Positions 1 through 10,854 of a DNA stretch of 10,854 nt are shown in pieces. A program made the translations under genes and the position numbers. How positions within the stretch are numbered: the first letter of the stretch is position 1; every line of letters begins with the position of its first letter. Source of the DNA: a virus. The stretch lies in the UHGV virus genome UHGV-0142836; one strand, given 5' to 3'. Under the pieces are notes generated by a model, which did not search any database, was not told the DNA's origin, and saw nothing but the letters and a program-made list of their open reading frames with translations.

Positions 1-692
1 TCATAGTTCCTTCGTAGTTCCTCTTAAAAAATCACTTACAGACACCTTAATATCTATACAGATTTCACGTAGAACACGATTAGTGCGTAAAACAGCTATT
101 ATGTTAAAAACACACTGTATACGTATCAGTACTGATTTATAAGGGTTTTGTGTATTTGAAGATAAGAGGCTATACAGCACCTTGAGAGCATGTCTTCTAA
201 GTCATTGATACATAAGGTCACAGAAGTTTGTGTCTGTTACAGAGAAAACTGGATAGGACTTCACAGAACTACAAAATGTTACAGCTATTGATAGGTGAAA
301 TCTTCTTGATAGATGCTTTGAAGTGTGGTGAAGGTTTCTTGAGGTGGAATTAACAGATGCTATGAAGAAAGTCAATAGTTGGTTATAGATATTTTAACTG
401 CTTTTGCAAAGGGGGTGCTATATCGTGAATCTGGGGTACTTAACAGCCATCAATCATGAGGTAGATTCTACCGAATCAACTGTGTAGATATTTTTAAGAT
501 TATCGGTGAAGGGGGAATGCAGAGGGGGTACTACGATTTTTATAAAAATTTTCAGAAGCTAAATAACTACTGTACAGATTTTATACAACTCTACCAAACA
601 TCATAGAAAGCTCTGTAGCGAGTTTTAACCCCATTTTTAGGGGTAGTCTATAGGTATGTACCGCCCACCTTTAAATAAAGGGGTAAAATCGC

Positions 693-723
693 TTAGAATG
701 CGTTACAGAGCGTCTGAGAAGCT
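693..723. repeat. Solo copy of an R2 arm (see R2 copies at 1949-2047 and 3622-3750)
   Basis: 'ttagaatgcgttacagagcgtctgagaagct' matches the reverse complement of 3622-3652 with about 4 central mismatches, and also resembles the R2 right-arm core 'cgttacagagcg'. Confidence 0.5.
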
Positions 724-1490
724 ATATTCACAGATTTTACTAAAACCTCAGACTTTCTAAGTGGTCTTTTTAACAGGAGGGTTCTTTCTCATGTATCACC
801 CTCTCTTCCCACTGAGTAAGCTACACAGACCTAGAGAACATGCCTTCACAACACCTATATAGGTCAGATTTAGAGGGTTTTGATAGAATCTTCAAAGGTA
901 CTTGACAGATAACTATGAAGTTGTTAGGAAGGAGTGTTTAACGGGGGAAGAGATACGATATAACCCGAAGGGGAGAGTATCATCTTAACAGTGATTGTAA
1001 GAGTAAAACTGAAAAGATACTTAACAGAACTACCAAGAGGGAGCGATAAGACCAGAGGTAGTGACCTTGTTAAACAGTTCGTTTCAAAGCTCTTAAGAAT
1101 CTGTTAAGTAAGGTCATGTGAACAATCTTACCATTTTGTCAATGCTTTTGTCTTTGACCTAAATCAATAAAATGTATCGTTTGATATGTTTTTAAACAAA
1201 ATAGTTAAAAATCTTTTTAGAGGTGCGCTTCGCTTGTGTCACCAATATCATTCTTCCCTGTCTAAGAGGGAAGTTACAGGGCATTTCAAAGCCCTCAATA
1301 GGCAAACCGAGGAATACGGAAAACCGAGGGAAGAAAAACTATTGTGATTACCTTGAACAAGGTCTGTAAAGGTCGTTTAAGAGGTCGGTTAAGAAGGGAG
1401 CTTCCCTTTCTTGGGTGTCGCTCTTCTCCCGCTTAGTGGATTGATTAAGAAGACCTCTGAAGTTTCTCTGTGAAGGTGCTGAACAGCTAT

Positions 1491-1543
1491 TATATTGGGT
1501 GATTACAACTTATTGAAAAATAAGAACTTTTATAAGTTACTGT
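1491..1543. repeat. 53-bp direct repeat, copy 1, containing palindrome 'cttattgaaaaataag' (1509-1524)
   Basis: First 42 bp are identical to 1585-1626, then 2 mismatches in the next 11 bp; internal 6-bp inverted repeat CTTATT/AATAAG around GAAA, followed by AACTT-ttat-AAGTT. Confidence 0.7.
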
Positions 1544-1584
1544 TAAGGTTACAGAGTTAACTGTGAAGAGACTTGTCAGTCTTA

Positions 1585-1637
1585 TATATTGGGTGATTAC
1601 AACTTATTGAAAAATAAGAACTTTTAGAAATTACTGT
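1585..1637. repeat. 53-bp direct repeat, copy 2 (94 bp downstream of copy 1)
   Basis: Same sequence as 1491-1543, including the internal palindromes. Confidence 0.7.
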
Positions 1638-1719
1638 CAGAGAGGTGAATACTTGATAGATACAGCTTTCCGGTTCTGTCAAGCTATTTTTTAATAGATA
1701 GCACAAAATGCTAAAGATA

Positions 1720-1749
1720 CCCCCCTATACATCTCGTACAGGGGGTTTT
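1720..1749. terminator. Probable bidirectional intrinsic terminator
   Basis: GC-rich hairpin 'cccccctatac-atctc-gtacaggggg' (about 9 of 10 bp paired) followed by TTTT on the plus strand and by a T-rich run on the minus strand; lies 10 bp beyond the stop of the minus-strand gene at 1759. Confidence 0.45.
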
Positions 1750-1758
1750 GGAGGGGGT

Positions 1759-1935
1759 TTAGCGGGGGTCTGTATGGTCATTATCCTTAAGGTCAAGCGT
1801 CCATGTACGACCGAACAGTTTAAAGACAACAAGCACCCTGACGAGGACGTAGCGAAGTAGCAGACCTGCAATAAGTCCAATACCTCCACCAGCCCACACA
1901 TCAGGTGACCCCAATTCCTGAGGGAGATTTACCAT
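1759..1935 (-). CDS. Small hydrophobic membrane protein, 58 aa (MVNLPQELGSPDVWAGGGIGLIAGLLLRYVLVRVLVVFKLFGRTWTLDLKDNDHTDPR)
   Basis: The six-frame ORF runs 1759-1977 from a TTG; the in-frame ATG at 1935-1933 is preceded by AAGGA about 7 nt upstream. One predicted transmembrane stretch (GGGIGLIAGLLLRYVLVRVLVVF). Terminator immediately downstream. Function not recognised. Confidence 0.4.
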   Translation of the reverse strand: MVNLPQELGSPDVWAGGGIGLIAGLLLRYVLVRVLVVFKLFGRTWTLDLKDNDHTDPR

Positions 1936-1948
1936 TAGTTTTCCTTGT

Positions 1949-2047
1949 AAGACGCTCTCAATCGCATTCTGACACAAAAAGTATCTGACCTTATGAGTTG
2001 ACCTGAAGAGGCCGTTTAACTCGTTACAGAGCGATTGAAGAGGTCTG
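1949..2047. repeat. R2 element copy 1: inverted-repeat arms (1951-1970 and 2014-2047) around a ~40-bp spacer
   Basis: Left arm 'gacgctctcaatcgcattct' and right arm 'gtttaactcgttacagagcgattgaagaggtctg' are near-identical to the arms at 3631-3650 and 3717-3750; the arms are imperfect reverse complements of each other (GCGATTGA core). Confidence 0.6.
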
Positions 2048-2079
2048 TGTGCAATGCAATAACCATGTGACCAAATACA

Positions 2080-2118
2080 TAGTTGATTCGGTTAGTTGGG
2101 ATTGTACCAACCCCTATC
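2080..2118. repeat. att-like composite repeat (left copy): 18-bp part A at 2080-2097 fused to 26-bp part B at 2093-2118
   Basis: 'tagttgattcggttagtt' is identical to 10825-10842; 'tagttgggattgtaccaacccctat' matches 10529-10554 with 2 mismatches. A degenerate A-like sequence 'catagttccttcgtagttcc' also sits at 2-21. Confidence 0.45.
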
Positions 2119-2204
2119 GAATAAACCTCATAGCCACGCCTTTATATTTTACTCTCCCCATAAACCCATTATACCACAGATGTTAATAAAATGTTAAAAA
2201 ATAC

Positions 2205-2233
2205 TTGACATTAGCCTTTGAAAATGCTAGGAT
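2205..2233 (+). promoter_or_regulatory. Sigma70-like promoter P1: TTGACA, 17-bp spacer, TGcTAGGAT (extended -10)
   Basis: TTGACA at 2205-2210 and TAGGAT at 2228-2233 with TG at 2225-2226; followed by 'ttgtatatat', which is shared with promoter P2 at 4197-4225. Confidence 0.4.
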
Positions 2234-2283
2234 TGTATATATGAGTTAACAGAGAATTAACAATTATAAGGGCCAGCTTATGA

Positions 2284-2835
2284 ATGAACGACAGAGAATT
2301 TCAAAAGTTTCTTGAAGAATCCAAGAGACGCAACAGACACAACGGTTACAGCCACACAAACAACCCCACCAGATACGAAGTCCCAGCCTTTACCAAATCC
2401 GAACGTAAAAACATTGAAGCGGTCATTCGTAGCATTACGCCACGAGACAGATTTATGCCAGCACGCAAAGAAAAAGAGAATACTTTAAAAACTTTCTTGA
2501 TGGGCTTTGATTCTTACGAGCAACTGCCAGCAAAAATTGAAGATTTAATTATCGGCACTTGTCGCAGCTTTGGAAGAGATAATTATCACCGAAAAGTTTT
2601 CTATTTACTACGAAATATTGACAAGATTAGCTCAAGCACAATAACAAGTCATCTACAGCGTCAAGCGACCCGATTAAGCCATGAGCTACCAAGCGATAAA
2701 TATTGCGCTAACTTAGCCACTATTTGCATGAAAGTTATTGAGACAATTAATCATCATGCGGAAATGGGAAATATCAGCCTTACGACAAGTGAGCCAGACT
2801 TTGAGTTTGACCCGTATATTTTGGAGGAATTTTAA
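2284..2835 (+). CDS. Hypothetical protein, 183 aa
   Basis: Intact ORF downstream of P1; its stop is 1 nt before the next start. No recognisable motif; weak Shine-Dalgarno. Confidence 0.55.
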   Translation: MNDREFQKFLEESKRRNRHNGYSHTNNPTRYEVPAFTKSERKNIEAVIRSITPRDRFMPARKEKENTLKTFLMGFDSYEQLPAKIEDLIIGTCRSFGRDNYHRKVFYLLRNIDKISSSTITSHLQRQATRLSHELPSDKYCANLATICMKVIETINHHAEMGNISLTTSEPDFEFDPYILEEF

Positions 2836-2836
2836 A

Positions 2837-3115
2837 ATGAATAAACACACTCTAACCCGTATTTCAGAGGAAGCTTTTAACGAGCTTAACAGAATTAAAC
2901 GAGCGACTAACCTGCCTCATCAGACTATTATGCAGCTTGCAATTGCTAAAGAGGTCACTGAGTCGGATTTACTGAAATATCCAGTTTCTAAAGGTCGCAG
3001 ACACATCAGAATTACTAAGAACGCTCTGGCTACTCTGAAGGAACTGAACAACTTTAAAATTGATATTGCCCGACTATTGAGCATCAAGATTCACAAGCTA
3101 TCGATGGGGGTTTAA
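2837..3115 (+). CDS. Putative small DNA-binding protein, 92 aa, possibly ribbon-helix-helix
   Basis: GGAGG at 2823-2827 sits 9 nt before ATG 2837. The track ORF (2738-3115) extends upstream inside the previous gene, so the internal ATG is preferred. N-terminus 'HTLTRISEEAFNELNRIKRATNLPHQTIMQLAIAKE' fits a strand-helix-turn-helix RHH pattern (inference only). Confidence 0.45.
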   Translation: MNKHTLTRISEEAFNELNRIKRATNLPHQTIMQLAIAKEVTESDLLKYPVSKGRRHIRITKNALATLKELNNFKIDIARLLSIKIHKLSMGV

Positions 3116-3318
3116 TGCTATGCATTACCTTTGAATACCACACAGATAAAATGATTCGCTACATCTCCGACCTCCTGATTAAAGGAAACGGATTCGGTGA
3201 CATCCATAACTCAAAAGATATTTTCATTAAAGCCATTGGCCCAAATGAAACACTGAAAACAGCAGTTAAACCGGAATGGTTTGAACGTCATAAGATTGAA
3301 TTAGGTTATTGGGGGTGA
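3115..3318 (+). CDS. Hypothetical protein, 67 aa
   Basis: Start overlaps the previous stop (TAATG at 3113-3117), indicating translational coupling. No recognisable motif. Confidence 0.45.
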   Translation: MLCITFEYHTDKMIRYISDLLIKGNGFGDIHNSKDIFIKAIGPNETLKTAVKPEWFERHKIELGYWG

Positions 3319-3327
3319 GGAGGTTTT

Positions 3328-3615
3328 ATGAAACCTTGGCATGAAGATGTTAGAAGATATTTTGCAGAACACCTTATCTATGATGAATCCAGTGATTCCC
3401 TGTGCTGGTCTGATGGAGAGTCAGTCACGATAAATACCGACGACTACGGCAACAAAACATTTAATATAGGTCGATACACATTCTATGTGAAATATGTTGT
3501 CTGGTTCCTTTATCATGGCTATCAATCCAATAAGCAAATTATCCATCGAAATGGTAACAGAGCCGATACCAGACCAAAAAACCTTATGCAAGTCCGAGAC
3601 TTTAAGAGAAATTAG
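3328..3615 (+). CDS. Small HNH-family endonuclease, 95 aa
   Basis: GAGGAGG immediately upstream of ATG 3328. C-terminal 'YVVWFLYHGYQSNKQIIHRNGNRADTRPKNLMQV' matches the phage HNH pattern (HRlvw...H-x-dGn-x-dNr-x-NL). Confidence 0.55.
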   Translation: MKPWHEDVRRYFAEHLIYDESSDSLCWSDGESVTINTDDYGNKTFNIGRYTFYVKYVVWFLYHGYQSNKQIIHRNGNRADTRPKNLMQVRDFKRN

Positions 3616-3621
3616 AAAAAC

Positions 3622-3750
3622 AGCTTCTCAGACGCTCTCAATCGCATTCTAACGCAAAAAACTACCTTGTTTTAGGGTGGGTAATACCACTGTACAGGCT
3701 ACCCCTGAAAAAGACTGTTTAGCTCGTTACAGAGCGATTGAGGAGGTCTG
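3622..3750. repeat. R2 element copy 2: arms at 3631-3650 and 3717-3750 around a ~66-bp spacer containing hairpin GGGTA...TACCC and palindrome CTGTACAG
   Basis: Arms near-identical to copy 1 while the spacer is unrelated; the element ends 5 nt before the AAGGAG Shine-Dalgarno of the gene at 3772. Confidence 0.6.
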
Positions 3751-3771
3751 GTAAAAAGGAGATTTTAAGAA

Positions 3772-4095
3772 ATGAACAATTACGAATTACAGATTTTCGT
3801 TGATGCCGACACTGCTATGATGATTCAGGCTTTCAGTGATTCCGGTGTATCAATTGACTTTGATAAATTACTAAAGCTGATGGCTGATAATGCAGAAAAC
3901 ATCTCTGACTTTATTCAGTCGGTGGAGTTTAACGAGCCTCGAATGATGCTACCAATTACAGACTCAAACATGAAAAGATTGGTTATTGAGCAAACGAACA
4001 AATACAGTATTTCCCCAGAGCAATTTTTGAAAGGTGCTGTGACAATCCTGTACAGCGATAATATTTTGGTGACGGATTCTGTGAGGATTCACTAA
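3772..4095 (+). CDS. Hypothetical protein, 107 aa
   Basis: AAGGAG sits 10 nt upstream of ATG 3772; intact ORF; no recognisable motif. Confidence 0.55.
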   Translation: MNNYELQIFVDADTAMMIQAFSDSGVSIDFDKLLKLMADNAENISDFIQSVEFNEPRMMLPITDSNMKRLVIEQTNKYSISPEQFLKGAVTILYSDNILVTDSVRIH

Positions 4096-4172
4096 TGACG
4101 TTAATTGTATTATGGACGCTGCTAGGGCTATTTGTTGGTTGCTGGATGGGTAACACAGTAAATAAGAATTGA
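4095..4172 (+). CDS. Candidate 25-aa hydrophobic micropeptide (MTLIVLWTLLGLFVGCWMGNTVNKN)
   Basis: ATG overlaps the upstream stop (TAATG at 4093-4097), the same coupling geometry as at 3113-3117; single hydrophobic helix. Below the ORF-track size cutoff, hand-translated. Confidence 0.25.
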   Translation: MTLIVLWTLLGLFVGCWMGNTVNKN

Positions 4173-4196
4173 TGTTACCAATCTGTTAAAAAGCTG

Positions 4197-4225
4197 TTGA
4201 CAAATAACATTGAGCATGACATAAT
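4197..4225 (+). promoter_or_regulatory. Sigma70-like promoter P2: TTGACA, 17-bp spacer, CATAAT
   Basis: TTGACA at 4197-4202 and CATAAT at 4220-4225, followed by 'ttgtatatat' exactly as in P1. Confidence 0.4.
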
Positions 4226-4232
4226 TGTATAT

Positions 4233-4416
4233 ATAGGGAGAGCAATTCTCTCTTATTTTCTTTCAATAATCCGATGGATGGATATTCTGAGTTGGAAAGG
4301 TGCAATGCTTTTCGTCATGGCCTTTCAGTTTAGTCTGAGAGGCTATCTCAAAAAGTGCTTAATCATTCATTGAACCCTTTACAGCTTTGCCCTAACTCAT
4401 GATTAGGGCTTTCTTT
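4233..4416 (+). ncRNA. Candidate small RNA or structured leader transcribed from P2, ending at the first terminator
   Basis: About 185 nt between the predicted start site and the terminator at 4389-4416; no ORF with a ribosome-binding site; hairpin GAGAG-caatt-CTCTC directly after the predicted start. Confidence 0.25.
4389..4416 (+). terminator. Intrinsic terminator T1
   Basis: Perfect 7-bp stem GCCCTAA / TTAGGGC with a 7-nt loop, followed by TTTCTTT. Confidence 0.5.
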
Positions 4417-4485
4417 AAGAGTTTTTAAACAGAGCTTTTAAAGAAAGTTTTTCCTGAAACTTCGTTAACGTTAAAGCAAACCTTC

Positions 4486-4519
4486 AAAGCCCTTCACAGA
4501 TTATGTTTAGGGCTTTTTT
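4486..4519 (+). terminator. Intrinsic terminator T2
   Basis: Stem 'aaagccct' / 'agggcttt' with a 15-nt loop, followed by a T-run; its 3' half 'tttagggcttt' repeats T1. Confidence 0.45.
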
Positions 4520-4629
4520 CAGCTTTTAAAAAGCATACTTGGCAAACCGCCTTTTAAGCCTCTTCTAAGTTCGTAGGATGTCAGGTGTGCTTTTTAAAAA
4601 CTGAATATTACTTAGAAGAGGAAAATGAA

Positions 4630-5337
4630 ATGGAAAATCTATATATTAGCGGTAGAAAGGTTGATAGCTTCGGTGACTGGTCGCCACAGACTGAACATCC
4701 AGCTATCACTATTCAGCGTCAAGAGCATGACAAGCGCATTGAGCTTGAGCAATCGCTAAAGATGTCACCAAAAACAACCATCTTTGTGTCTCCTGAACCT
4801 CAAGAGATGCCTGATGTTTGCAAGGGTGAAGCATTACTTGAGCTTGAAAAGAAATATTACCCACTGCTGAAAGCACAAAGAATTAAACTTGATGACGCTT
4901 ACAGCAAAGTTACCCTGATGCAATCAGCTATTGAGCCATCAGAATTTGAGATTCAGGATGAATTGTCACAGAAACCATTTGTCTATTACCAATACGAAGA
5001 CAATGATGGTTTTGGTACTTTTCCTGAGAATATCCCAGACGTGATTAATAATCTTCCTGATGGATATCGAATTGTGAAAATGATTGGAGCTTCAAGAGGT
5101 GATGGTCAGTTTATTTACATGACCAATAAGAGCGATGAAGAACTCCGTGAAATTGCCAGACAGAACATCTTAGCATCACGTAACAAGCAACTTGAAAATG
5201 TTAAGTTGTGTCTCTTAAGAGAGCTTCAGGCTATGAAAGACCTTATTTCTGCATATGAAACGCAGAAGAAGATTGCTATGCAGGCTGATATTGAGCAGTT
5301 AGTGAAGATTTCTCAGAAGTATAGCAAGGTACTTTAA
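4630..5337 (+). CDS. Hypothetical protein, 235 aa, with a predicted coiled-coil C-terminus
   Basis: The six-frame ORF begins at GTG 4585; the in-frame ATG at 4630 has a GAGGA Shine-Dalgarno about 8 nt upstream. No recognisable domain. Confidence 0.55.
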   Translation: MENLYISGRKVDSFGDWSPQTEHPAITIQRQEHDKRIELEQSLKMSPKTTIFVSPEPQEMPDVCKGEALLELEKKYYPLLKAQRIKLDDAYSKVTLMQSAIEPSEFEIQDELSQKPFVYYQYEDNDGFGTFPENIPDVINNLPDGYRIVKMIGASRGDGQFIYMTNKSDEELREIARQNILASRNKQLENVKLCLLRELQAMKDLISAYETQKKIAMQADIEQLVKISQKYSKVL

Positions 5338-5361
5338 CTAATAATTAAAAGGAGGTGATGA

Positions 5362-5577
5362 ATGATTGATTTGCAACAGCGTTATGAAACTATTAAGTCG
5401 GCTTGCAAAAACTTAAAGTTACAAACTAAGCCAGCCTTAAGAATTAAAACCAAACGTCAAGTTATCACCTCACACAAACCAAAAACACGCAAGATTCCAA
5501 AGTGGTGTATCGACCGTATCCCTTCTGATGCCCAAATCATAGGTGAAACGGAATTACATTATCTTGTCAGACATTAA
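5362..5577 (+). CDS. Hypothetical basic protein, 71 aa
   Basis: Strong Shine-Dalgarno AAGGAGGTGA before ATG 5362; Lys/Arg-rich; terminator follows. Confidence 0.5.
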   Translation: MIDLQQRYETIKSACKNLKLQTKPALRIKTKRQVITSHKPKTRKIPKWCIDRIPSDAQIIGETELHYLVRH

Positions 5578-5624
5578 AAAGATTGGTTGGGTGTATGAGA
5601 TAGGTTCTATCGAATCTATAACAC

Positions 5625-5668
5625 GGGGAGAGATTATCGATATTATTCGGTAGTTTCTCCCTTTTTTG
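5625..5668 (+). terminator. Intrinsic terminator after the 71-aa gene
   Basis: Stem GGGAGA (5626-5631) / TCTCCC (5656-5661), extendable with G-U pairs, followed by TTTTTT at 5662-5667. Confidence 0.5.
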
Positions 5669-5684
5669 TATATGAGATAGTCTT

Positions 5685-5769
5685 CTATCGAATCCTATGT
5701 GCTACGTGAAATCTTCTGAACAGATATACCCACCAAAAATTATTTTTTACGTAGCTCACGCTTAACAGA
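5685..5769 (+). repeat. R1 element copy a: conserved stem-loop (GCTACGTGAA 5701-5710 pairing with TTTACGTAGC 5745-5754) plus box 'tcacgcttaacaga', 16 nt before ATG 5785
   Basis: About 85% identical over ~85 bp to 7957-8034, with the same spacing to the downstream start codon. Confidence 0.65.
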
Positions 5770-5784
5770 GGTGAAATATGAACA

Positions 5785-7875
5785 ATGGCACAATTTAAAG
5801 TTGATAGTTTTATCGTTGAGCTAGGCTTCAGCGAGAGCGTTATTAAGGGCTTGCAAAGAGTTGAAAAGGCAGCTTTGCAGTCAGCACAAAGAATTGAAAA
5901 GAACCTAAATAAAGGTTTTAGGATTAATACAAAGCAGCTTGATAGTAATTTAACGGCTTCTTTAGGGCAGCTTGAAAGAAAGTTTAATAAGACTTTTGAT
6001 AAGATTGAACAGAGAGCAAGAAATACTAAAGCTTTCCAGTTTACAACCAGATTTAATGACACTGTTAATCCTCCAAAACAATCAAGGCAACCACGAATTA
6101 GCGGAAACAGAGCAATCACAGCAGCGCATAGCGTGAATATGTCTAAGCTTGGTGATATTAATCCGCTGATGGCTAAAATGTTTAAAGCACAGTATTACAG
6201 CTTAAGCGGTAAGGCTGGTAATATTGGAAGTGAAAAGTTTAACGCTGAACTTGCAAAATTAAATCAATCTCTTCGTGAAACGTTGAATAAACTCAGGTCA
6301 CAGACAAAGACCACCAGCAAAAACAATCACAGTGAAAATGCTTCGAATGGTCTGGATGTATTAGCTACGAGTGCAATCAAAGCAGGTACAGCCATTTATA
6401 GTTTTCAGACAGCCTTAGAAGCTTACAAGAAGGTTATGGAGGTTGGTCTGAAAAAAGAAGCATCACAACGAGCGGCACAATTCGTTTTAGGTGATGAAGG
6501 TGCTAAACGAGCTACAGAATTTGTGAAGAATCTTGCTAATAATACAGGTGTTGACCAGATTGAGACATTAAGCAGCTTTGCTAAGTTTTCCGCTGGTGCT
6601 GGTGATATGAATGCAGACCAGAAAGAATCCTTATTTAGTAATGTGATTGGTACATCCCGACTAATGGGTTTAAGCACTGATGAGATTAACGGGATTCTAA
6701 AAGCTTTCGAGCAGATGGCTTCTAAAGGGAAGATTCAGGCTGAAGAGCTACGTGGTCAATTAGGGGACAGAATGGCAGGTGCTTTTCAGTTATTTGCCAG
6801 AAGCCTTGGGATGACTACAGAGCAATTAGATGCAGCTATGAAGAACGGTAAAGTTCTTTCTAAAGATGTTCTTCCTAAAGTATCCGCTGAAATGGGAAGG
6901 ATGATTGATAAAGCTGGTGGATGGGAAAAGATTATTAACTCTACTCAGACGCAGTTAGGCCGCCTTTCTAATTCATGGAATAATAATCTGGCCTTAATGT
7001 TCGATGGTTCACAGGAAGGTTTAACAGACTTTACAAGGTCACTGACTAATTTACTTAATTCGCTAGGTGGGCAATCTAAAAATCTTGGTGAACATTTTGG
7101 CGACTTGATGAAAAGTATGTCAAACGGTATTGATGATTTAACCACGATTAGCTACCGAGTGCAGGGATTCTTTGACAGAGTGACCCTTGCTTACAGAGAA
7201 TTAAATGACACTCAAAAAGCTGTAGCTGATGGTATCGCAAATGGCCTGTTAAGTGCATTAAAGGGACTTGCTGGTATTGTTGCTGTAAGGTCTGGTATTG
7301 GTGCTGTAGGTGGCATCTGGAACTTAATTAGGGCTATTTCCACGCTTGGAAATGTAGCAAATACAGCAGCGGGAAGAATCAATTCACGTTCTGGTACTGG
7401 TAGTGTTGAAGGTGGTAAAGGAAAATTATCTGTAGCTGATGCAATTACCAAAGTAATGATTGTTGGTATGGCAACTGATGTGATTAACTCCATTGTTAAA
7501 CCGTTCTATGAACGTCAGATGAGTAAGTCAGATAATCCAATTGACAAAGTTGTAAGGTCAAAGGTGGAACCCACAGACCAAGCATTGACTGGTGACATGA
7601 ACTCTTTAGCTGCTGTTTTATGGGCTATGGTTCAGGGCAAATCAAAGGATGTTCCACAGCTTTCACCTGAAGCATTAAATAATCTGAAAGGTCGAGTGGA
7701 AACATTCACACAAGATTTAAAGGTTATCAAGCCGTCAGTAAACATTCAGCCTCAGACAATCAATATCACAACTCAGACGGTACTTGATGGAAAGGTTATT
7801 GATGAAAGAACCACATCGCATATTAATCGTATGCAGGAAGATACCTTGATTAGCTCAGCTTACCCAGAGGAATAA
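5785..7875 (+). CDS. Protein with a phage tail tape-measure-like domain, 696 aa
   Basis: The segment 'FEQMASKGKIQAEELRGQLGDRMAGAFQLFARSLGMTTEQLDAAMKNGKVLSKDVLPKV' resembles the conserved tape-measure domain of lambda-like phages; Gly/Ala-rich hydrophobic stretch 'GLLSALKGLAGIVAVRSGIGAVGG'. Unusually short for a tape measure and lacking neighbouring tail genes. Confidence 0.5.
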   Translation: MAQFKVDSFIVELGFSESVIKGLQRVEKAALQSAQRIEKNLNKGFRINTKQLDSNLTASLGQLERKFNKTFDKIEQRARNTKAFQFTTRFNDTVNPPKQSRQPRISGNRAITAAHSVNMSKLGDINPLMAKMFKAQYYSLSGKAGNIGSEKFNAELAKLNQSLRETLNKLRSQTKTTSKNNHSENASNGLDVLATSAIKAGTAIYSFQTALEAYKKVMEVGLKKEASQRAAQFVLGDEGAKRATEFVKNLANNTGVDQIETLSSFAKFSAGAGDMNADQKESLFSNVIGTSRLMGLSTDEINGILKAFEQMASKGKIQAEELRGQLGDRMAGAFQLFARSLGMTTEQLDAAMKNGKVLSKDVLPKVSAEMGRMIDKAGGWEKIINSTQTQLGRLSNSWNNNLALMFDGSQEGLTDFTRSLTNLLNSLGGQSKNLGEHFGDLMKSMSNGIDDLTTISYRVQGFFDRVTLAYRELNDTQKAVADGIANGLLSALKGLAGIVAVRSGIGAVGGIWNLIRAISTLGNVANTAAGRINSRSGTGSVEGGKGKLSVADAITKVMIVGMATDVINSIVKPFYERQMSKSDNPIDKVVRSKVEPTDQALTGDMNSLAAVLWAMVQGKSKDVPQLSPEALNNLKGRVETFTQDLKVIKPSVNIQPQTINITTQTVLDGKVIDERTTSHINRMQEDTLISSAYPEE

Positions 7876-7899
7876 ACAATGTTAGAACTACTAATATTT

Positions 7900-7917
7900 A
7901 TTGCCACACATGGCAAT
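7900..7917. repeat. Perfect palindrome ATTGCCA-caca-TGGCAAT just downstream of the 696-aa gene
   Basis: 7-bp arms with a 4-nt spacer; possible weak terminator or operator. No clear T-tract. Confidence 0.3.
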
Positions 7918-7956
7918 CTATTAATCTTTATCTAGTATGACGATTCAACTATGAAT

Positions 7957-8034
7957 AGTCGAATGCTACGTGATTTCTTCTGAACAGATACCAACATCAA
8001 AAATTAGATTTCACGTAGCTCACGCTTAACAGAA
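7957..8034 (+). repeat. R1 element copy b: stem GCTACGTGA (7965-7973) / TCACGTAGC (8011-8019), box 'tcacgcttaacaga' (8020-8033), 15 nt before ATG 8049
   Basis: Perfect 9-bp stem with a 37-nt loop whose sequence ('tcttctgaacagata...caaaaatta') is conserved with copy a. Confidence 0.65.
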
Positions 8035-8048
8035 TAGGAATAACAACA

Positions 8049-8819
8049 ATGTTTGACACAAAGCAAATTAGATACTCAGGTAAAGATGGTATCTATTTTC
8101 ACCTTAGAGATAATGTAGAATCTTTTCTTGCCTTAACAGCTACTGAACAGATGGACTATGACAGCCCTATGATGGTGACAACTCAGGCTATGCAATCAGG
8201 GCAAACCGTCACAGATAATGTTCAGAGAGCACCTAAGACCATCTCTATTAGCGGTGTTGTAGTGGTTGATTCGACGGGTTCAATTCTATTAACCAGACAG
8301 GGGCAACTTGTAGAGACCTTTATTTCTACGGTTGAACAATGGCGAGACCAGAAGCAAATCATCACTATTGTTTGTAGAGATGGAATAGCTATCACTGATA
8401 GTATCATTACTCAGTTTAAAGCGAGTAAAGAGCATACCATTGCTAATGGTCTTCGTATTCAGATGACCTTCCAAGGTGTAGAATTTCGTTCAATCGTAGG
8501 TCAAACTGATATTTCGGCTGCAACTGGAAAAGCCGCGACTACGAATGATGGTGGTGCTACCAGTAAAAAGAATACAGGGAATACTACGACAAGTTTAGGT
8601 AATGGTATGTTGCTGTGTCAGGAGTTATATAATCGCTCTACGAGTGAACTCACTAATGAGCAACTTCAAGCCCGTATCAATTGTGGTAGAAGTGTCAAAG
8701 TTGAGAACGGAAAAAGCACCTTCTCAGATGCCGCTAATGAGCAGGCTTCAAAAGTGCTTAAGTCGGGTAATGCTTTACGGAAATTTAGTGTGAATCCGAA
8801 TAAGAAGGGCACTTATTGA
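8049..8819 (+). CDS. Hypothetical protein, 256 aa, with a Thr/Gly/Ser-rich central region
   Basis: Intact ORF immediately after R1b; no recognisable motif. A distal-tail or other structural role is conceivable only from its position after the tape-measure-like gene. Confidence 0.55.
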
Positions 8820-8828
8820 GACATAAAA

Positions 8829-8846
8829 AGGGGCTTCATAGCCCCT
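8829..8846. terminator. Bidirectional terminator between the convergent 256-aa gene and the recombinase gene
   Basis: Perfect stem AGGGGC / GCCCCT with a 6-nt loop, flanked by AAAAA upstream (a T-run on the minus strand, so it reads as a terminator for the recombinase transcript). Confidence 0.5.
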
Positions 8847-8851
8847 GAAAA

Positions 8852-10372
8852 TTACAGTTGATAAGCGTCAATATCCAGTAGCTCTTTATCAGCAATTTCA
8901 AAGATTGGTGACCCATCATTTAGCGGTAACGGGTTTGTAGGTATGGTGATTTTAGTGTCGTTCTGTAGCGTTACAGTTACCGAATCCTTACCCAATGTAA
9001 GCCCTTTTAGATGTTTGGACAAAATCAACTGACACTCGACACGACCTGCTTTAGTTGTCAGGTCAATATCTTTAAGCTGGGGTAGTTCCTTATCAGTGAG
9101 TGAAGCCTTACGCCTCATGTTATCAATCGTGGTCTGTAGCTCTGTGCGCTTCTGGTTAAGTCCCTTCACCTGTGTTTTCAACTCTGTAATATCATCCATT
9201 TCAAGAAGTAGGGCGGTAGCTTTCTTGATTCTAGCTGTGACAATTTCAACCTCATGCTGTAACGCTGCAATCTTCCTCTCTGATTCTCCATCATTCCCCA
9301 CGTCAATCATCCCCAGAAAATTATCAATCATCCATCGGTCAAACGGTTTACGCTTCAACGGTGGAACATCACAGCGACCGTCAGGATTGTTATTGCACCT
9401 GTAAACTCCTGCATACTTATTCTTAGTCCCTGTAGGGTGAACACTAGCCCCACACTGACACCGGAATAATCCCTTGAAGATGTTAATCGTTAATGGGTTA
9501 TCACTTGCAGGTGTACGGCCTTTACGATTTTTATCGAGGATTTCTTGAGCTTTATTGAACGTTGCAGCATCTATAGCGGCTTCGTAGTAGTTCGGTATAG
9601 CGGGGCGGTCATTGCGCTGTGATGCTGGTAACGTGCCTATTGTTGTCTCCGACCTTAAGATGGTGCGTACAGAGTGGACACTAAACCCGTTAGCATCTTT
9701 ACGCCGTGAGAATGAACTAATGTTATTAGCCTGTAGGTGACGTGCAATGTTATGTAGACTTTCACCATCTAGCAGCAGTTTGAAAATCAGTCTTACAGTC
9801 TCAGCGTGTTCATTGACTTCAAAAGTCTCAGGGTCAATCCATCCGGGGACCATCTTTGTTAAACGTTGTTTACCAGCAAGGGCAAGTTTTGCACGTTGCC
9901 CCCATTTCTGAGAAACACGGAAAGACTTCTGTTTACTCTCCTGATGCGCTAGGTAGCTTTTAACCCGCTGAATGATTGAGATTCCTAAATCATCGGATAG
10001 AGCATCCCTTGTGTAGATTAGCCCATCCTGTAGAGTGTGAATCTCGATACCATGAGCAATAATGCGGTTCATCAAGGCTTCTGTTTCAAGGTGTTCTAAG
10101 CGGCCTATACGGTCGATACTCTCAACAAGCAAAATCGTACCTTTTGAAAACTCCCCAGACTCAATACGGGCTAACATGTCACCAAACTGACCAGTAAGGT
10201 GCTTACCTTTGTAACCGGATAGACCCTCATCACTGAAAGACGCTACTACTTGAGCATCGCTATTCTTCTTCAACCATTGCTTGAACAGGTCATTTTGTCG
10301 TCTGGTTGAATCTGCACCTTCAGCGCCTTGTATGGCTGAACTGTACCGAAGGTATGTAATTACGCTTCTCAT
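8852..10372 (-). CDS. Large serine recombinase (phage or element integrase), 506 aa
   Basis: N-terminal resolvase-type catalytic domain (YLRYSS...Q with the Ser nucleophile, DEGLSGYKG, IDRIGR); a Cys cluster (CQCGASVH...YRCNNNPDGRCD) consistent with a zinc ribbon; C-terminal coiled-coil segment. Confidence 0.9.
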   Translation of the reverse strand: MRSVITYLRYSSAIQGAEGADSTRRQNDLFKQWLKKNSDAQVVASFSDEGLSGYKGKHLTGQFGDMLARIESGEFSKGTILLVESIDRIGRLEHLETEALMNRIIAHGIEIHTLQDGLIYTRDALSDDLGISIIQRVKSYLAHQESKQKSFRVSQKWGQRAKLALAGKQRLTKMVPGWIDPETFEVNEHAETVRLIFKLLLDGESLHNIARHLQANNISSFSRRKDANGFSVHSVRTILRSETTIGTLPASQRNDRPAIPNYYEAAIDAATFNKAQEILDKNRKGRTPASDNPLTINIFKGLFRCQCGASVHPTGTKNKYAGVYRCNNNPDGRCDVPPLKRKPFDRWMIDNFLGMIDVGNDGESERKIAALQHEVEIVTARIKKATALLLEMDDITELKTQVKGLNQKRTELQTTIDNMRRKASLTDKELPQLKDIDLTTKAGRVECQLILSKHLKGLTLGKDSVTVTLQNDTKITIPTNPLPLNDGSPIFEIADKELLDIDAYQL

Positions 10373-10528
10373 GGTGATAAACTCTCATGCAATTGATTAT
10401 CATTTAAAGATAAGCTTATAACCGTTATGGCTAATGCTACAATGCCGAATAGCTACAATACAATGACCCTTGAATGAAGTCTATTCGGTTTTCTAAGAGA
10501 CCTGTTAAAAACAGGACAATATCAGGTG

Positions 10529-10554
10529 TAGTTGGGCTTGTTCCAACCCCTATG
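10529..10554. repeat. att-like repeat part B (right copy), containing hairpin GTTGG-gcttgtt-CCAAC
   Basis: 'tagttgggcttgttccaacccctat' matches 2093-2118 with 2 mismatches; lies about 155 bp upstream of the recombinase start. Confidence 0.4.
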
Positions 10555-10824
10555 ACTATGCAATTTTCCAAGTATCTAAGCAGTTTTACACAGATTCTAT
10601 GCAGTATCGGTATAGTCCCTTTTTATCATAACTTATTGAAATATATAAAGAATATGTGAAGTCCCTTTTCAGGGTAAACTGTATCGTGTTAGTCGTCCCT
10701 CTCCAGACTCCTAGAAAAGTGCTATATACAGGAGTATATAACGCTATATAGATGTTTGGTCACCATACGTTACAGTTGCAAGAGATAACAATCAGCTATG
10801 TGAAAGTTAGGAGGTGATGGTTAT

Positions 10825-10842
10825 AGTTGATTCGGTTAGTTC
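10825..10842. repeat. att-like repeat part A (right copy), 18 bp identical to 2080-2097
   Basis: Exact 18-bp direct repeat about 8.75 kb from its partner; flanking sequence differs on both sides, as expected for a recombination junction. Confidence 0.45.
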
Positions 10843-10854
10843 TAGGAATCAACC

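What the first reader, a model, noticed from the sequence alone, without database searches (positions are those of the whole stretch)
4197..4629. Consensus promoter followed by a ~400-nt untranslated leader with two related terminators before the 235-aa gene
P2 is almost a copy of P1 (TTGACA, 17 bp, -10, then 'ttgtatatat') but is followed by hairpins and two intrinsic terminators (4389-4416, 4486-4519) that share 'tttagggcttt', before the gene at 4630. This fits either a discrete ~185-nt small RNA or an attenuation or antitermination leader that gates expression of the downstream genes.
Basis: seen in the sequence. Interest (0 to 1): 0.5.

Follow-up and report, generated by a model that had tools for sequence, protein, structure and literature searches.

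The report
Terminator-gated RNA leader in phage satellite
A near-perfect promoter in a small, widespread E. coli phage-satellite-like island makes a conserved, highly folded untranslated RNA that mostly stops at built-in terminators, and any read-through meets a second lock on the ribosome-binding site of the next gene; the design is familiar, but this RNA matches no described family.

Summary
P2 (4197-4225) is the best sigma-70 match in the window. It is followed by about 400 nt with no conserved ORF, a 5' stem-loop, a core hairpin and intrinsic terminators T1 (4389-4416) and T2 (4486-4519).

Homologous DNA occurs in 478 of 5,426 complete E. coli genomes. I compared 38 distinct leaders. All keep the promoter, the core hairpin (compensatory changes, G.U pairs on the + strand only) and at least one terminator.

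New findings:
- T1 and T2 look like a ~100-nt duplication.
- A third terminator-like hairpin lies between them.
- A 27-bp hairpin (4518-4605) carries in its loop a 12-nt perfect complement (4559-4570) of the Shine-Dalgarno region (4610-4621). Three unrelated sequence versions keep this pairing.

The window is the complete circular form of a ~10.85-kb island with tape-measure and Dit homologues of Felix O1-like phages.

Best reading: a cis-acting leader that gates the downstream genes by termination and by Shine-Dalgarno sequestration, with short RNAs as the default product. What opens the gate is unknown.

Leader-peptide attenuation, type III toxin-antitoxin and all Rfam families were tested and not met. 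A trans-acting small RNA is not excluded. Interest is moderate.

The parts
4173..4202 (+). Three 11-bp-phased TGTT(A/G)(A/C) repeats (4173, 4184, 4195). The third overlaps the -35. This is a possible UP element or operator and is shared with P1 (2180-2212).
   Evidence: Read from the sequence. Kept in all P2 homologues, including a divergent Citrobacter copy whose spacers differ. P1 has the same layout. Function is inferred.
4197..4225 (+). Promoter P2: -35 TTGACA, 17-bp spacer, TG at 4217-4218, -10 CATAAT. The predicted start is about 4231-4233.
   Evidence: Best promoter match in the window. The -35, spacing and TG are invariant in 38 homologues. The start site is inferred.
4235..4253 (+). 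5'-proximal stem-loop (AGGGAGA / UCUCUCU), probably a 5' stabiliser.
   Evidence: Folds at -6.9 kcal/mol. The stem covaries (GGGAGAG/CTCTCT, GGAAGAG/TTTTTCC, AGGAGA/TCTCCT, AGAGAG/CTCTCT). The following U run is not conserved.
4295..4314 (+). Near-invariant 20-mer GAAAGGTGCAATGCTTTTCG. It looks like a Shine-Dalgarno sequence plus ATG (4305-4307). Role unknown.
   Evidence: Unchanged in 20 of 22 BLAST-collected sequences; the other two have a one-base indel. The ORF from this ATG is not conserved in frame or length.
4308..4355 (+). Core hairpin: outer helix CUUUUCG/CAAAAAG, apical helix 4317-4328/4335-4346, loop 4329-4334.
   Evidence: The apical helix has 10-13 bp in 14 distinct sequences with compensatory changes at four positions and frequent G.U pairs. 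On a covariance-model alignment of 31 distinct sequences (this hairpin plus T1), 94.7% of cells pair, 7 pairs change on both sides, 0 of 500 shuffles reach this, and slid controls give 36-53%.
4389..4416 (+). Intrinsic terminator T1 (stem 4389-4395/4403-4409, then UUUCUUU).
   Evidence: The stem is conserved. The whole hairpin is found reverse-complemented in many homologues. It is absent from single-terminator variants.
4409..4452 (+). Terminator-like hairpin T1b. The U tract of T1 pairs with 4435-4447, and UUUUU follows at 4448-4452.
   Evidence: Inverted repeat I2 is 92% complementary. It folds at -17.8 kcal/mol and is present in the minimum-energy fold of the whole leader.
4486..4519 (+). 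Intrinsic terminator T2 (AAAGCCCU/AGGGCUUU with a 15-nt loop, then a U run).
   Evidence: Its loop tolerates 11- to 30-nt insertions, and one homologue has the hairpin inverted.
4518..4605 (+). Long hairpin: arms 4518-4544 and 4579-4605, loop 34 nt. Its 5' arm starts in the U tract of T2.
   Evidence: Inverted repeat I1. It folds at -30 to -42 kcal/mol in 33 unique variants belonging to three unrelated sequence types.
4559..4570 (+). Anti-Shine-Dalgarno sequence CCUCUUCUAAGU in the loop of the long hairpin.
   Evidence: It is a 12-nt perfect complement of 4610-4621. The duplex is -19.0 kcal/mol against -7.2 for shuffled loops (z = -6.3). The pairing is kept in all three hairpin types.
4610..4621 (+). 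Shine-Dalgarno region ACUUAGAAGAGG of the 235-aa gene (start codon 4630).
   Evidence: The predicted probability that it is unpaired is 0.73 with the 5' arm present and 0.14 with the arm removed. Other types behave the same way.
4630..5337 (+). The gated gene: a 235-aa protein predicted to form an antiparallel coiled coil with a small alpha/beta domain. Function unknown.
   Evidence: No hit in Pfam, PHROGs, NCBIfam or PADLOC. AlphaFold2 mean pLDDT is 73.5, and no fold match is significant.

Best explanation
Region 4173-4629 is the promoter and cis-acting 5' leader of the rightward unit of a ~10.85-kb phage-satellite-like island. That unit holds the 235-aa gene, the 71-aa gene, and most likely the tape-measure and Dit genes.

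P2 fires at about 4232. The RNA carries a 5' stem-loop, a conserved core hairpin and then one to three intrinsic terminators. The default products are therefore short RNAs of roughly 185, 220 and 290 nt.

Polymerases that pass the terminators transcribe a 27-bp hairpin whose loop holds an anti-Shine-Dalgarno sequence. With the hairpin intact, the ribosome-binding site is predicted to be open. If the 5' arm is removed or occupied, the anti-Shine-Dalgarno sequence closes it. Expression is thus gated at termination and at translation initiation.

Shown here: conservation, structure, terminator signals and the complementarity. Inferred: that P2 is active, that the terminators work, and what opens the gate. 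I favour a factor that makes RNA polymerase ignore terminators, supplied by the island or by an infecting Felix O1-like helper phage (sub-claim about 0.3). The long hairpin may in addition be an RNase III processing site.
For: - P2 is the best promoter match and is invariant in 38 leaders.
- The leader is 331-515 nt in every copy, with no conserved ORF.
- Folding: z = -6.2.
- The core hairpin and T1 covary: 94.7% of cells paired, 7 pairs changed on both sides, 0 of 500 shuffles. Manual register gives 10-13 bp in 14 variants, with G.U pairs that work only on the + strand.
- Every copy keeps at least one hairpin-plus-U-tract between the core and the gene.
- The long hairpin and the anti-Shine-Dalgarno pairing are kept in three sequence-unrelated versions. 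The predicted switch is shown.
- A further conserved, covarying terminator lies 20-35 nt before the tape-measure start codon in 6 of 17 islands, leaving no room for a promoter. Late genes must therefore be reached by terminator read-through.
- The Felix O1 genome paper notes many internal terminators whose bypass is unexplained (PMC3185647).
Against: - No transcript data are available.
- No antiterminator was identified. No island protein tested hits a named regulator family in Pfam or NCBIfam, and the PHROGs and PADLOC scans also gave nothing relevant. The AlphaFold2 model of the 183-aa protein was unusable (pLDDT 50.8).
- No Rfam match and no motif shared with the one helper-like phage examined.
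- That phage also has a terminator inside its tail operon, so leaky termination that merely sets expression ratios would explain the layout without any switch.
- The hairpin state leaves the ribosome-binding site open by default, so the trigger for closure is hypothetical.
- The near-invariance of 4295-4314 is not explained by a purely cis role.
- P2 may be repressed through the TGTTA repeats rather than constitutive.
Confidence: 0.5

Rival explanations
1. The main product is a stand-alone, trans-acting small RNA (P2 to T1 or T2). It would pair with host, island or helper-phage mRNAs. The downstream gene is then only weakly and incidentally linked to it.
For: The region has a near-consensus promoter, a 5' stem-loop, a covarying core hairpin and a terminator with a U tail, which is the usual build of a bacterial small RNA. 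The 20-mer 4295-4314 is almost invariant although its predicted pairing partners vary. That pattern suggests a sequence-specific contact.
Against: No complementarity beyond chance was found to the island or to phage EcSzw-2: the longest Watson-Crick runs are 10-12 nt, against 9-15 nt for shuffles. blastn found no phage hit of note. The RNA is always followed by the same protein family and the same Shine-Dalgarno-sequestering hairpin. Short seeds cannot be detected by the methods used.
Confidence: 0.2
2. The region is a passive attenuator and insulator with no conditional control. T1 and T2 end the upstream P1 operon, which has no terminator of its own, and bleed a fixed small fraction of P2 transcripts into the downstream genes.
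For: No terminator lies between the end of the P1 operon (4172) and T1. The number of terminators varies from one to three between copies, and T1/T2 look like a ~100-nt duplication. That is easier to tolerate for a dosage device. The helper-like phage also has an internal terminator in its tail operon.
Against: It does not explain the conserved anti-Shine-Dalgarno pairing in three sequence types, the covarying core hairpin, or why a near-consensus promoter sits directly before strong terminators.
Confidence: 0.2
3. An immunity RNA of the phage P1 c4 / satellite P4 CI type. The long hairpin would be cut out of the leader and its loop would then block the ribosome-binding site of other transcripts in trans, keeping the downstream genes silent.
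For: The anti-Shine-Dalgarno sequence sits at the apex of a stable hairpin upstream of its target on the same transcript, in all three types. The stem (27 bp) and the linker to the Shine-Dalgarno region (5-15 nt) make pairing in cis sterically unlikely while the hairpin is intact. This last point is an inference.
Against: No Rfam match to the C4 family or any other, even at E up to 10. No sign of processing is available. The hairpin lies downstream of the terminators, so it would be made only by read-through transcripts, which is an odd source for a repressor.
Confidence: 0.07
4. Leader-peptide (ribosome-mediated) attenuation using the small ORF that starts at ATG 4305.
For: GAAAGG plus ATG looks like a ribosome-binding site and is nearly invariant. 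In the window the ORF stops at 4371-4373, 15 nt before T1.
Against: Among homologues the ORF is about 11, 12, 22 or 31 codons long. One copy is frameshifted, and stop positions range from inside the core hairpin to inside T1. No conserved antiterminator alternative to T1 or T2 was seen. The match to Rfam His_leader scores 21.9 bits against a threshold of 49.
Confidence: 0.03

Closest known systems
Lambda late promoter PR' with its 6S RNA, terminator tR' and antiterminator Q (from general knowledge)
   Same: A strong promoter makes a short terminated transcript of about 190 nt by default. Structural genes lie beyond it and beyond further terminators, so they need terminator read-through.
   Different: No Q-family protein and no recognisable Q-binding or pause element were found. 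There are tandem terminators here. A Shine-Dalgarno-sequestering hairpin follows, which lambda lacks. There is no sequence homology.
Phage P1/P7 c4 RNA and satellite P4 CI RNA (Rfam C4 family; from general knowledge)
   Same: A structured RNA in the leader of the operon it controls. A hairpin loop is complementary to a ribosome-binding site further down the same transcript. P4 is a satellite with RNA-based control of premature termination.
   Different: No match to the C4 model. No evidence of processing. Here the complementary loop lies downstream of the terminators.
Salmonella Gifsy-1 IsrK (short small RNA plus long, translationally inactive read-through mRNA; from general knowledge)
   Same: One promoter gives a short terminated RNA and a longer mRNA whose translation depends on leader structure.
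   Different: I found no complementarity between the short RNA and the region that sequesters the Shine-Dalgarno sequence. There is no Rfam match.
Internal attenuating terminators of phage structural operons
   Same: A hairpin plus U tract between co-transcribed genes with no promoter after it, as upstream of the island's tape-measure gene and inside the tail operon of phage EcSzw-2.
   Different: Here the terminators sit in a long untranslated leader directly after a promoter and are combined with a translational lock.

Membership tests
Intrinsic (Rho-independent) terminator | G+C-containing hairpin followed directly by a U-rich tract on the transcribed strand | tested here: met
   T1 was found by the scan. 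T1, T1b and T2 fold at -9.2, -17.8 and -11.6 kcal/mol and carry U-rich tails. The stems are conserved or covary.
Intrinsic (Rho-independent) terminator | Transcripts actually end there | not testable with these tools
   Needs Term-seq, Northern blots or in vitro transcription.
Lambda-type Q antitermination unit | Promoter followed by a short terminated transcript, with late genes beyond several terminators | tested here: met
   P2, T1/T2, and a further conserved terminator 20-35 nt before the tape-measure start codon in 6 of 17 islands.
Lambda-type Q antitermination unit | A Q-family protein encoded next to the promoter | tested here: not met
   No antiterminator family hit for any island protein tested in Pfam or NCBIfam, with Pfam taken up to E = 10 for five of them. 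PHROGs and PADLOC gave nothing relevant.
Lambda-type Q antitermination unit | Q-binding element and a sigma-dependent promoter-proximal pause site | tested here: inconclusive
   The A+T-rich TGTATATAT after the -10 is shared with P1 but is not conserved in homologues. No consensus exists to test against.
P1 c4 / P4 CI antisense RNA (Rfam C4) | Similarity to the family's covariance model | tested here: not met
   No hit at the gathering threshold or at E up to 10.
P1 c4 / P4 CI antisense RNA (Rfam C4) | Hairpin loop complementary to a ribosome-binding site downstream on the same transcript | tested here: met
   4559-4570 against 4610-4621: 12 of 12 complementary, z = -6.3, kept in three sequence types.
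P1 c4 / P4 CI antisense RNA (Rfam C4) | Excision of the RNA from the leader by RNase P or other nucleases | not testable with these tools
   Needs mapping of RNA ends.
Type III toxin-antitoxin (ToxIN-like) | Array of tandem ~36-nt repeats before a terminator and the toxin gene | tested here: not met
   Only a 13-nt, 2.5-copy A/T-rich repeat was found at 4420-4452.
Type III toxin-antitoxin (ToxIN-like) | ToxN/AbiQ-type endoribonuclease downstream | tested here: not met
   The 235-aa protein has no Pfam or PADLOC hit and is predicted to be a coiled coil.
Leader-peptide attenuator (trp, his, pyrBI type) | Conserved leader ORF and mutually exclusive antiterminator and terminator pairings | tested here: not met
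   The frame, length and stop position of the ORF vary. No conserved competitor for the T1 or T2 stems was found. His_leader scores 21.9 bits against a threshold of 49.
Riboswitch or other Rfam cis-regulatory family | Match to a curated covariance model | tested here: not met
   There were 0 matches at gathering thresholds. All 24 weaker matches lie far below threshold.
Shine-Dalgarno sequestration switch | Conserved complement of the Shine-Dalgarno sequence, and an alternative fold that frees or blocks it | tested here: met
   the probability that the site is unpaired is 0.57-0.86 with the 5' arm and 0.01-0.17 without it. The in vivo effect was not tested.

The most novel reading that the evidence does not exclude
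The leader is the island's sensor for its helper phage. P2 idles, producing short RNAs. An antitermination activity brought in by an infecting Felix O1-like phage, whose own operons contain many unexplained internal terminators, lets RNA polymerase run through T1, T1b, T2 and the terminator before the tape-measure gene. The satellite's tape-measure and Dit genes are then switched on only when a helper is present. The long hairpin serves as a processing or translation checkpoint.
Probability: 0.2. Interest if true: 0.75.

Novelty: new variant of a known kind. Interest (0 to 1): 0.5.

Why it matters
The RNA is unannotated, has no Rfam family, and DNA homologous to it occurs in about 9% of complete E. 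coli genomes (478 of 5,426).

It sits at the control point of an island that I could not find described. The window is the island's closed circular form, it occurs as ~11-kb circular metagenome contigs, and it carries copies of the tape-measure and Dit genes of virulent Felix O1-like phages.

If read-through is conditional, this would show how a satellite of a virulent phage times its late genes. It could also point to the unknown way in which Felix O1-like phages pass their own terminators. Even as a passive attenuator, it is a clean natural example of termination and Shine-Dalgarno sequestration stacked in one leader. It also gives a covariance model that can be used for annotation.

Tried and rejected
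- **Rfam.** Gathering-threshold scan of the whole window and an E up to 10 scan of 4150-4680. Nothing useful; the His_leader and PyrR resemblances are only the terminator.
- **Phage and plasmid DNA searches.** megablast and blastn of the leader against 50,697 phage records gave no real hit. The plasmid collection gave none.
- **Targets for the short RNA.** Complementary runs to the island and to phage EcSzw-2 are no longer than for shuffled RNA. A duplex-energy scan timed out.
- **Island motifs in EcSzw-2.** Absent. The covariance model finds nothing in that phage.
- **Leader peptide, type III toxin-antitoxin, boxA/boxB-like elements.** Not conserved or not present. The boxA/boxB check was by eye only.
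- **Function of the 235-aa protein.** No family hit and no significant fold match. The 'transposase' label in RefSeq has no support here.
- **183-aa protein as a possible regulator.** The alignment is too shallow and the AlphaFold2 model is unusable.
- **Ribbon-helix-helix nature of the 92-aa protein.** Only sub-threshold hints, E about 0.09.
- **Alignment register.** MAFFT mis-registers the hairpin types. I therefore used a manual register and a covariance-model alignment.
- **Literature.** No paper on this island or this RNA, and none that prints its sequence.

Full report
**1. What the window is**

The 10,854-bp window is the complete circular form of a small mobile island. The 235-aa protein is identical to a protein named 'MAG TPA Caudoviricetes sp.'. 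It lies on 10,909-bp metagenome contigs that are circular permutations of the window.

The genes are as follows:
- five small genes behind promoter P1 (183, 92 and 67 aa, an HNH nuclease, and 107 aa);
- the finding itself;
- a 235-aa and a 71-aa gene;
- a tape-measure protein;
- a Dit-like baseplate protein;
- on the other strand, a large serine recombinase.

The Dit-like protein is about 70% identical to proteins of Felix O1-like phages (Ounavirinae). In phage EcSzw-2 the homologue follows the tape-measure gene, in the same order as here.

Related DNA is chromosomal in 570 of 5,426 complete E. coli genomes. In strain WCHEC025985 it interrupts the DUF72 gene between yecN and yecD. I found no paper describing the island.

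**2.

P2 is TTGACA, 17 bp, TG-n-CATAAT, and is the best promoter match in the window. The leader folds far better than shuffled sequence (z = -6.2). P1 and P2 share 43 of 64 positions, including two upstream TGTTA repeats at 11-bp spacing.

Three corrections:
- A 25-codon hydrophobic ORF (4095-4172) overlaps the stop codon of the 107-aa gene and is conserved at the protein level. The non-coding stretch therefore starts at 4173.
- A third terminator-like hairpin (4409-4447 plus UUUUU) uses the U tract of T1 as its 5' arm.
- The hairpin at 4235-4253 is a 5' stem-loop, not a terminator.

**3. Comparative evidence**

The 601-nt query 4100-4700, which spans the leader, matches 478 complete E. coli genomes at 77-99% identity. 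I collected 38 distinct leaders of 331-515 nt from E. coli, E. albertii and viral or metagenome contigs, and the promoter region of a Citrobacter copy. One caveat applies: loci L022-L039 were fetched by exact match to a 20-mer of the core, so its invariance should be judged only on the BLAST-derived set.

All 38 leaders keep these features:
- P2.
- A covarying 5' stem-loop.
- A core hairpin. Its apical helix has 10-13 bp in 14 distinct sequences, with compensatory changes at four positions and many G.U pairs, which work only in + strand RNA. A covariance-model alignment of this hairpin plus T1 gives 94.7% paired cells and 7 pairs changed on both sides. None of 500 shuffles reaches this, and slid controls give 36-53%. 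That alignment leans toward the model.
- At least one intrinsic terminator.

Nine copies lack the T1-T2 module or fuse it into a single terminator. In the window, the 3' half of T1 plus what follows parallels the 3' half of T2 plus what follows, at a spacing of 101-104 nt. The 'two related terminators' are therefore most simply a duplication. Both hairpins occur reverse-complemented in some copies.

**4. A second lock**

Right after T2 comes a 27-bp hairpin (4518-4544 with 4579-4605) that starts in the U tract of T2. Its loop contains CCUCUUCUAAGU (4559-4570). This is a perfect complement of ACUUAGAAGAGG (4610-4621), the Shine-Dalgarno region of the 235-aa gene.

The hairpin exists in three versions with unrelated arm sequences. 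All fold at -30 to -42 kcal/mol. All keep a loop-to-Shine-Dalgarno duplex of -13 to -22 kcal/mol, against about -7 to -9 for most shuffled loops.

With the 5' arm present, the ribosome-binding site is predicted to be open (0.57-0.86 unpaired). Without the arm it is closed (0.01-0.17). A classical pseudoknot seems sterically excluded, because only 5-15 nt link the 27-bp stem to the Shine-Dalgarno region; this is an inference. The two states therefore look like alternatives. What removes or occupies the 5' arm is unknown. RNase III cleavage of the long duplex is one obvious candidate.

**5. What gates transcription**

I found no conserved antiterminator pairing. The only candidate leader ORF (ATG 4305, preceded by GAAAGG) varies in frame, length and stop position. 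Classical attenuation is therefore unlikely.

The island as a whole depends on terminator read-through. A conserved, covarying terminator lies only 20-35 nt before the tape-measure start codon in 6 of 17 islands, which leaves no room for a promoter. In the window a ~100-nt mobile insert widens this gap.

This fits an antitermination-controlled late unit like lambda PR'-tR'-Q. The Felix O1 genome paper notes many internal terminators with no known bypass (PMC3185647). However, no antiterminator was identified. The helper-like phage also has a terminator inside its tail operon, so fixed, leaky termination remains a serious rival.

**6. A small RNA in its own right?**

The build of the RNA and the near-invariant 4295-4314 fit a trans-acting RNA. 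I found no target in the island or in one Ounavirinae genome beyond chance, and no similarity in phage records. Short seeds would escape these tests.

**7. Verdict**

This is a real, conserved, strand-specific structured RNA region with no Rfam family.
- Best reading (0.5): a cis-acting leader that gates the downstream genes by termination and by Shine-Dalgarno sequestration, with short RNAs as the default product.
- The trigger is not known. Helper- or island-driven antitermination is my favoured guess (about 0.3 as a sub-claim).
- The regulatory logic is of known kinds. The RNA, and its setting in a satellite-like island of virulent Felix O1-like phages, appear to be undescribed.

Noticed in passing
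window 1-10854; L042, L043: The window is the whole circular form of a ~10.85-kb satellite-like island. It has tape-measure and Dit homologues of Felix O1-like phages and a large serine recombinase, but no capsid, terminase or recognisable replication gene. Related DNA is in 570 of 5,426 complete E. coli genomes, and I found no paper on it.
   Followed up: partly
window 4095-4172 (+): An unannotated 25-codon ORF (MTLIVLWTLLGLFVGCWMGNTVNKN) overlaps the stop codon of the 107-aa gene (TAATG). It is conserved at the protein level across homologues and probably encodes a small membrane peptide.
   Followed up: partly
window 2180-2243 and 4173-4235: P1 and P2 share two TGTTA repeats at 11-bp spacing upstream of the -35 and are identical at 43 of 64 positions. 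The repeats persist in a divergent Citrobacter copy. This may be a common operator. The 92-aa protein shows only sub-threshold ribbon-helix-helix hints.
   Followed up: partly
window 456-483, 5596-5625, 5671-5771, 7935-8030; leader homologues L002, L006-L009, L013, L016, L021: Small mobile inserts occur here. One class is 28-30-nt units such as GAGGATAGTCTTCTATCCGAAGTCTATA. The other is a ~70-100-nt unit with ends TGCTACGTGAAAT...ACGTAGCTCACGCTTAACAG. They are present or absent at several sites between copies of the island, including three positions inside the leader. Part of the motif (TCGAATC) recalls a tRNA T-loop.
   Followed up: partly
window 5625-5668: A strong, covarying terminator directly precedes the tape-measure gene. 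In six islands only 20-35 nt separate its U tract from the start codon, so the tape-measure gene must be reached by read-through.
   Followed up: yes
window 1944-2047 and 3624-3750 (partial inverted copy at 685-726): A repeated element of ~105-125 nt (88-89% identity over its two conserved ends). Its ends can pair (CTCAATCGC with GCGATTGAG). One copy follows the HNH gene and the other precedes P1. It may be another structured RNA or a mobile unit.
   Followed up: no
window 2076-2120, 10525-10553, 10820-10854: Three related sites look like recombined attachment half-sites. 2076-2120 joins the left part of 10820-10854 to the right part of 10525-10553, and the last two are each partly palindromic. 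They may be substrates of the serine recombinase.
   Followed up: no
window 1-2200 and 10400-10854: About 2.6 kb has no convincing ORF. It is rich in repeats: a 94-nt tandem at 1491-1637 and many copies of TTAACAG. It is a candidate origin or packaging region.
   Followed up: no
window 4389-4409 and 4486-4516 versus homologues: Both terminator hairpins occur as exact reverse complements in some copies (T1 in many, T2 in L012). Palindrome flips of this kind keep terminator function.
   Followed up: partly
window 4630-5337: RefSeq calls many homologues of the 235-aa protein 'transposase'. No family or fold search supports this. A second family at this position (234 aa, starting MSIRNEHEM) is 27% identical to it.
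   Followed up: yes
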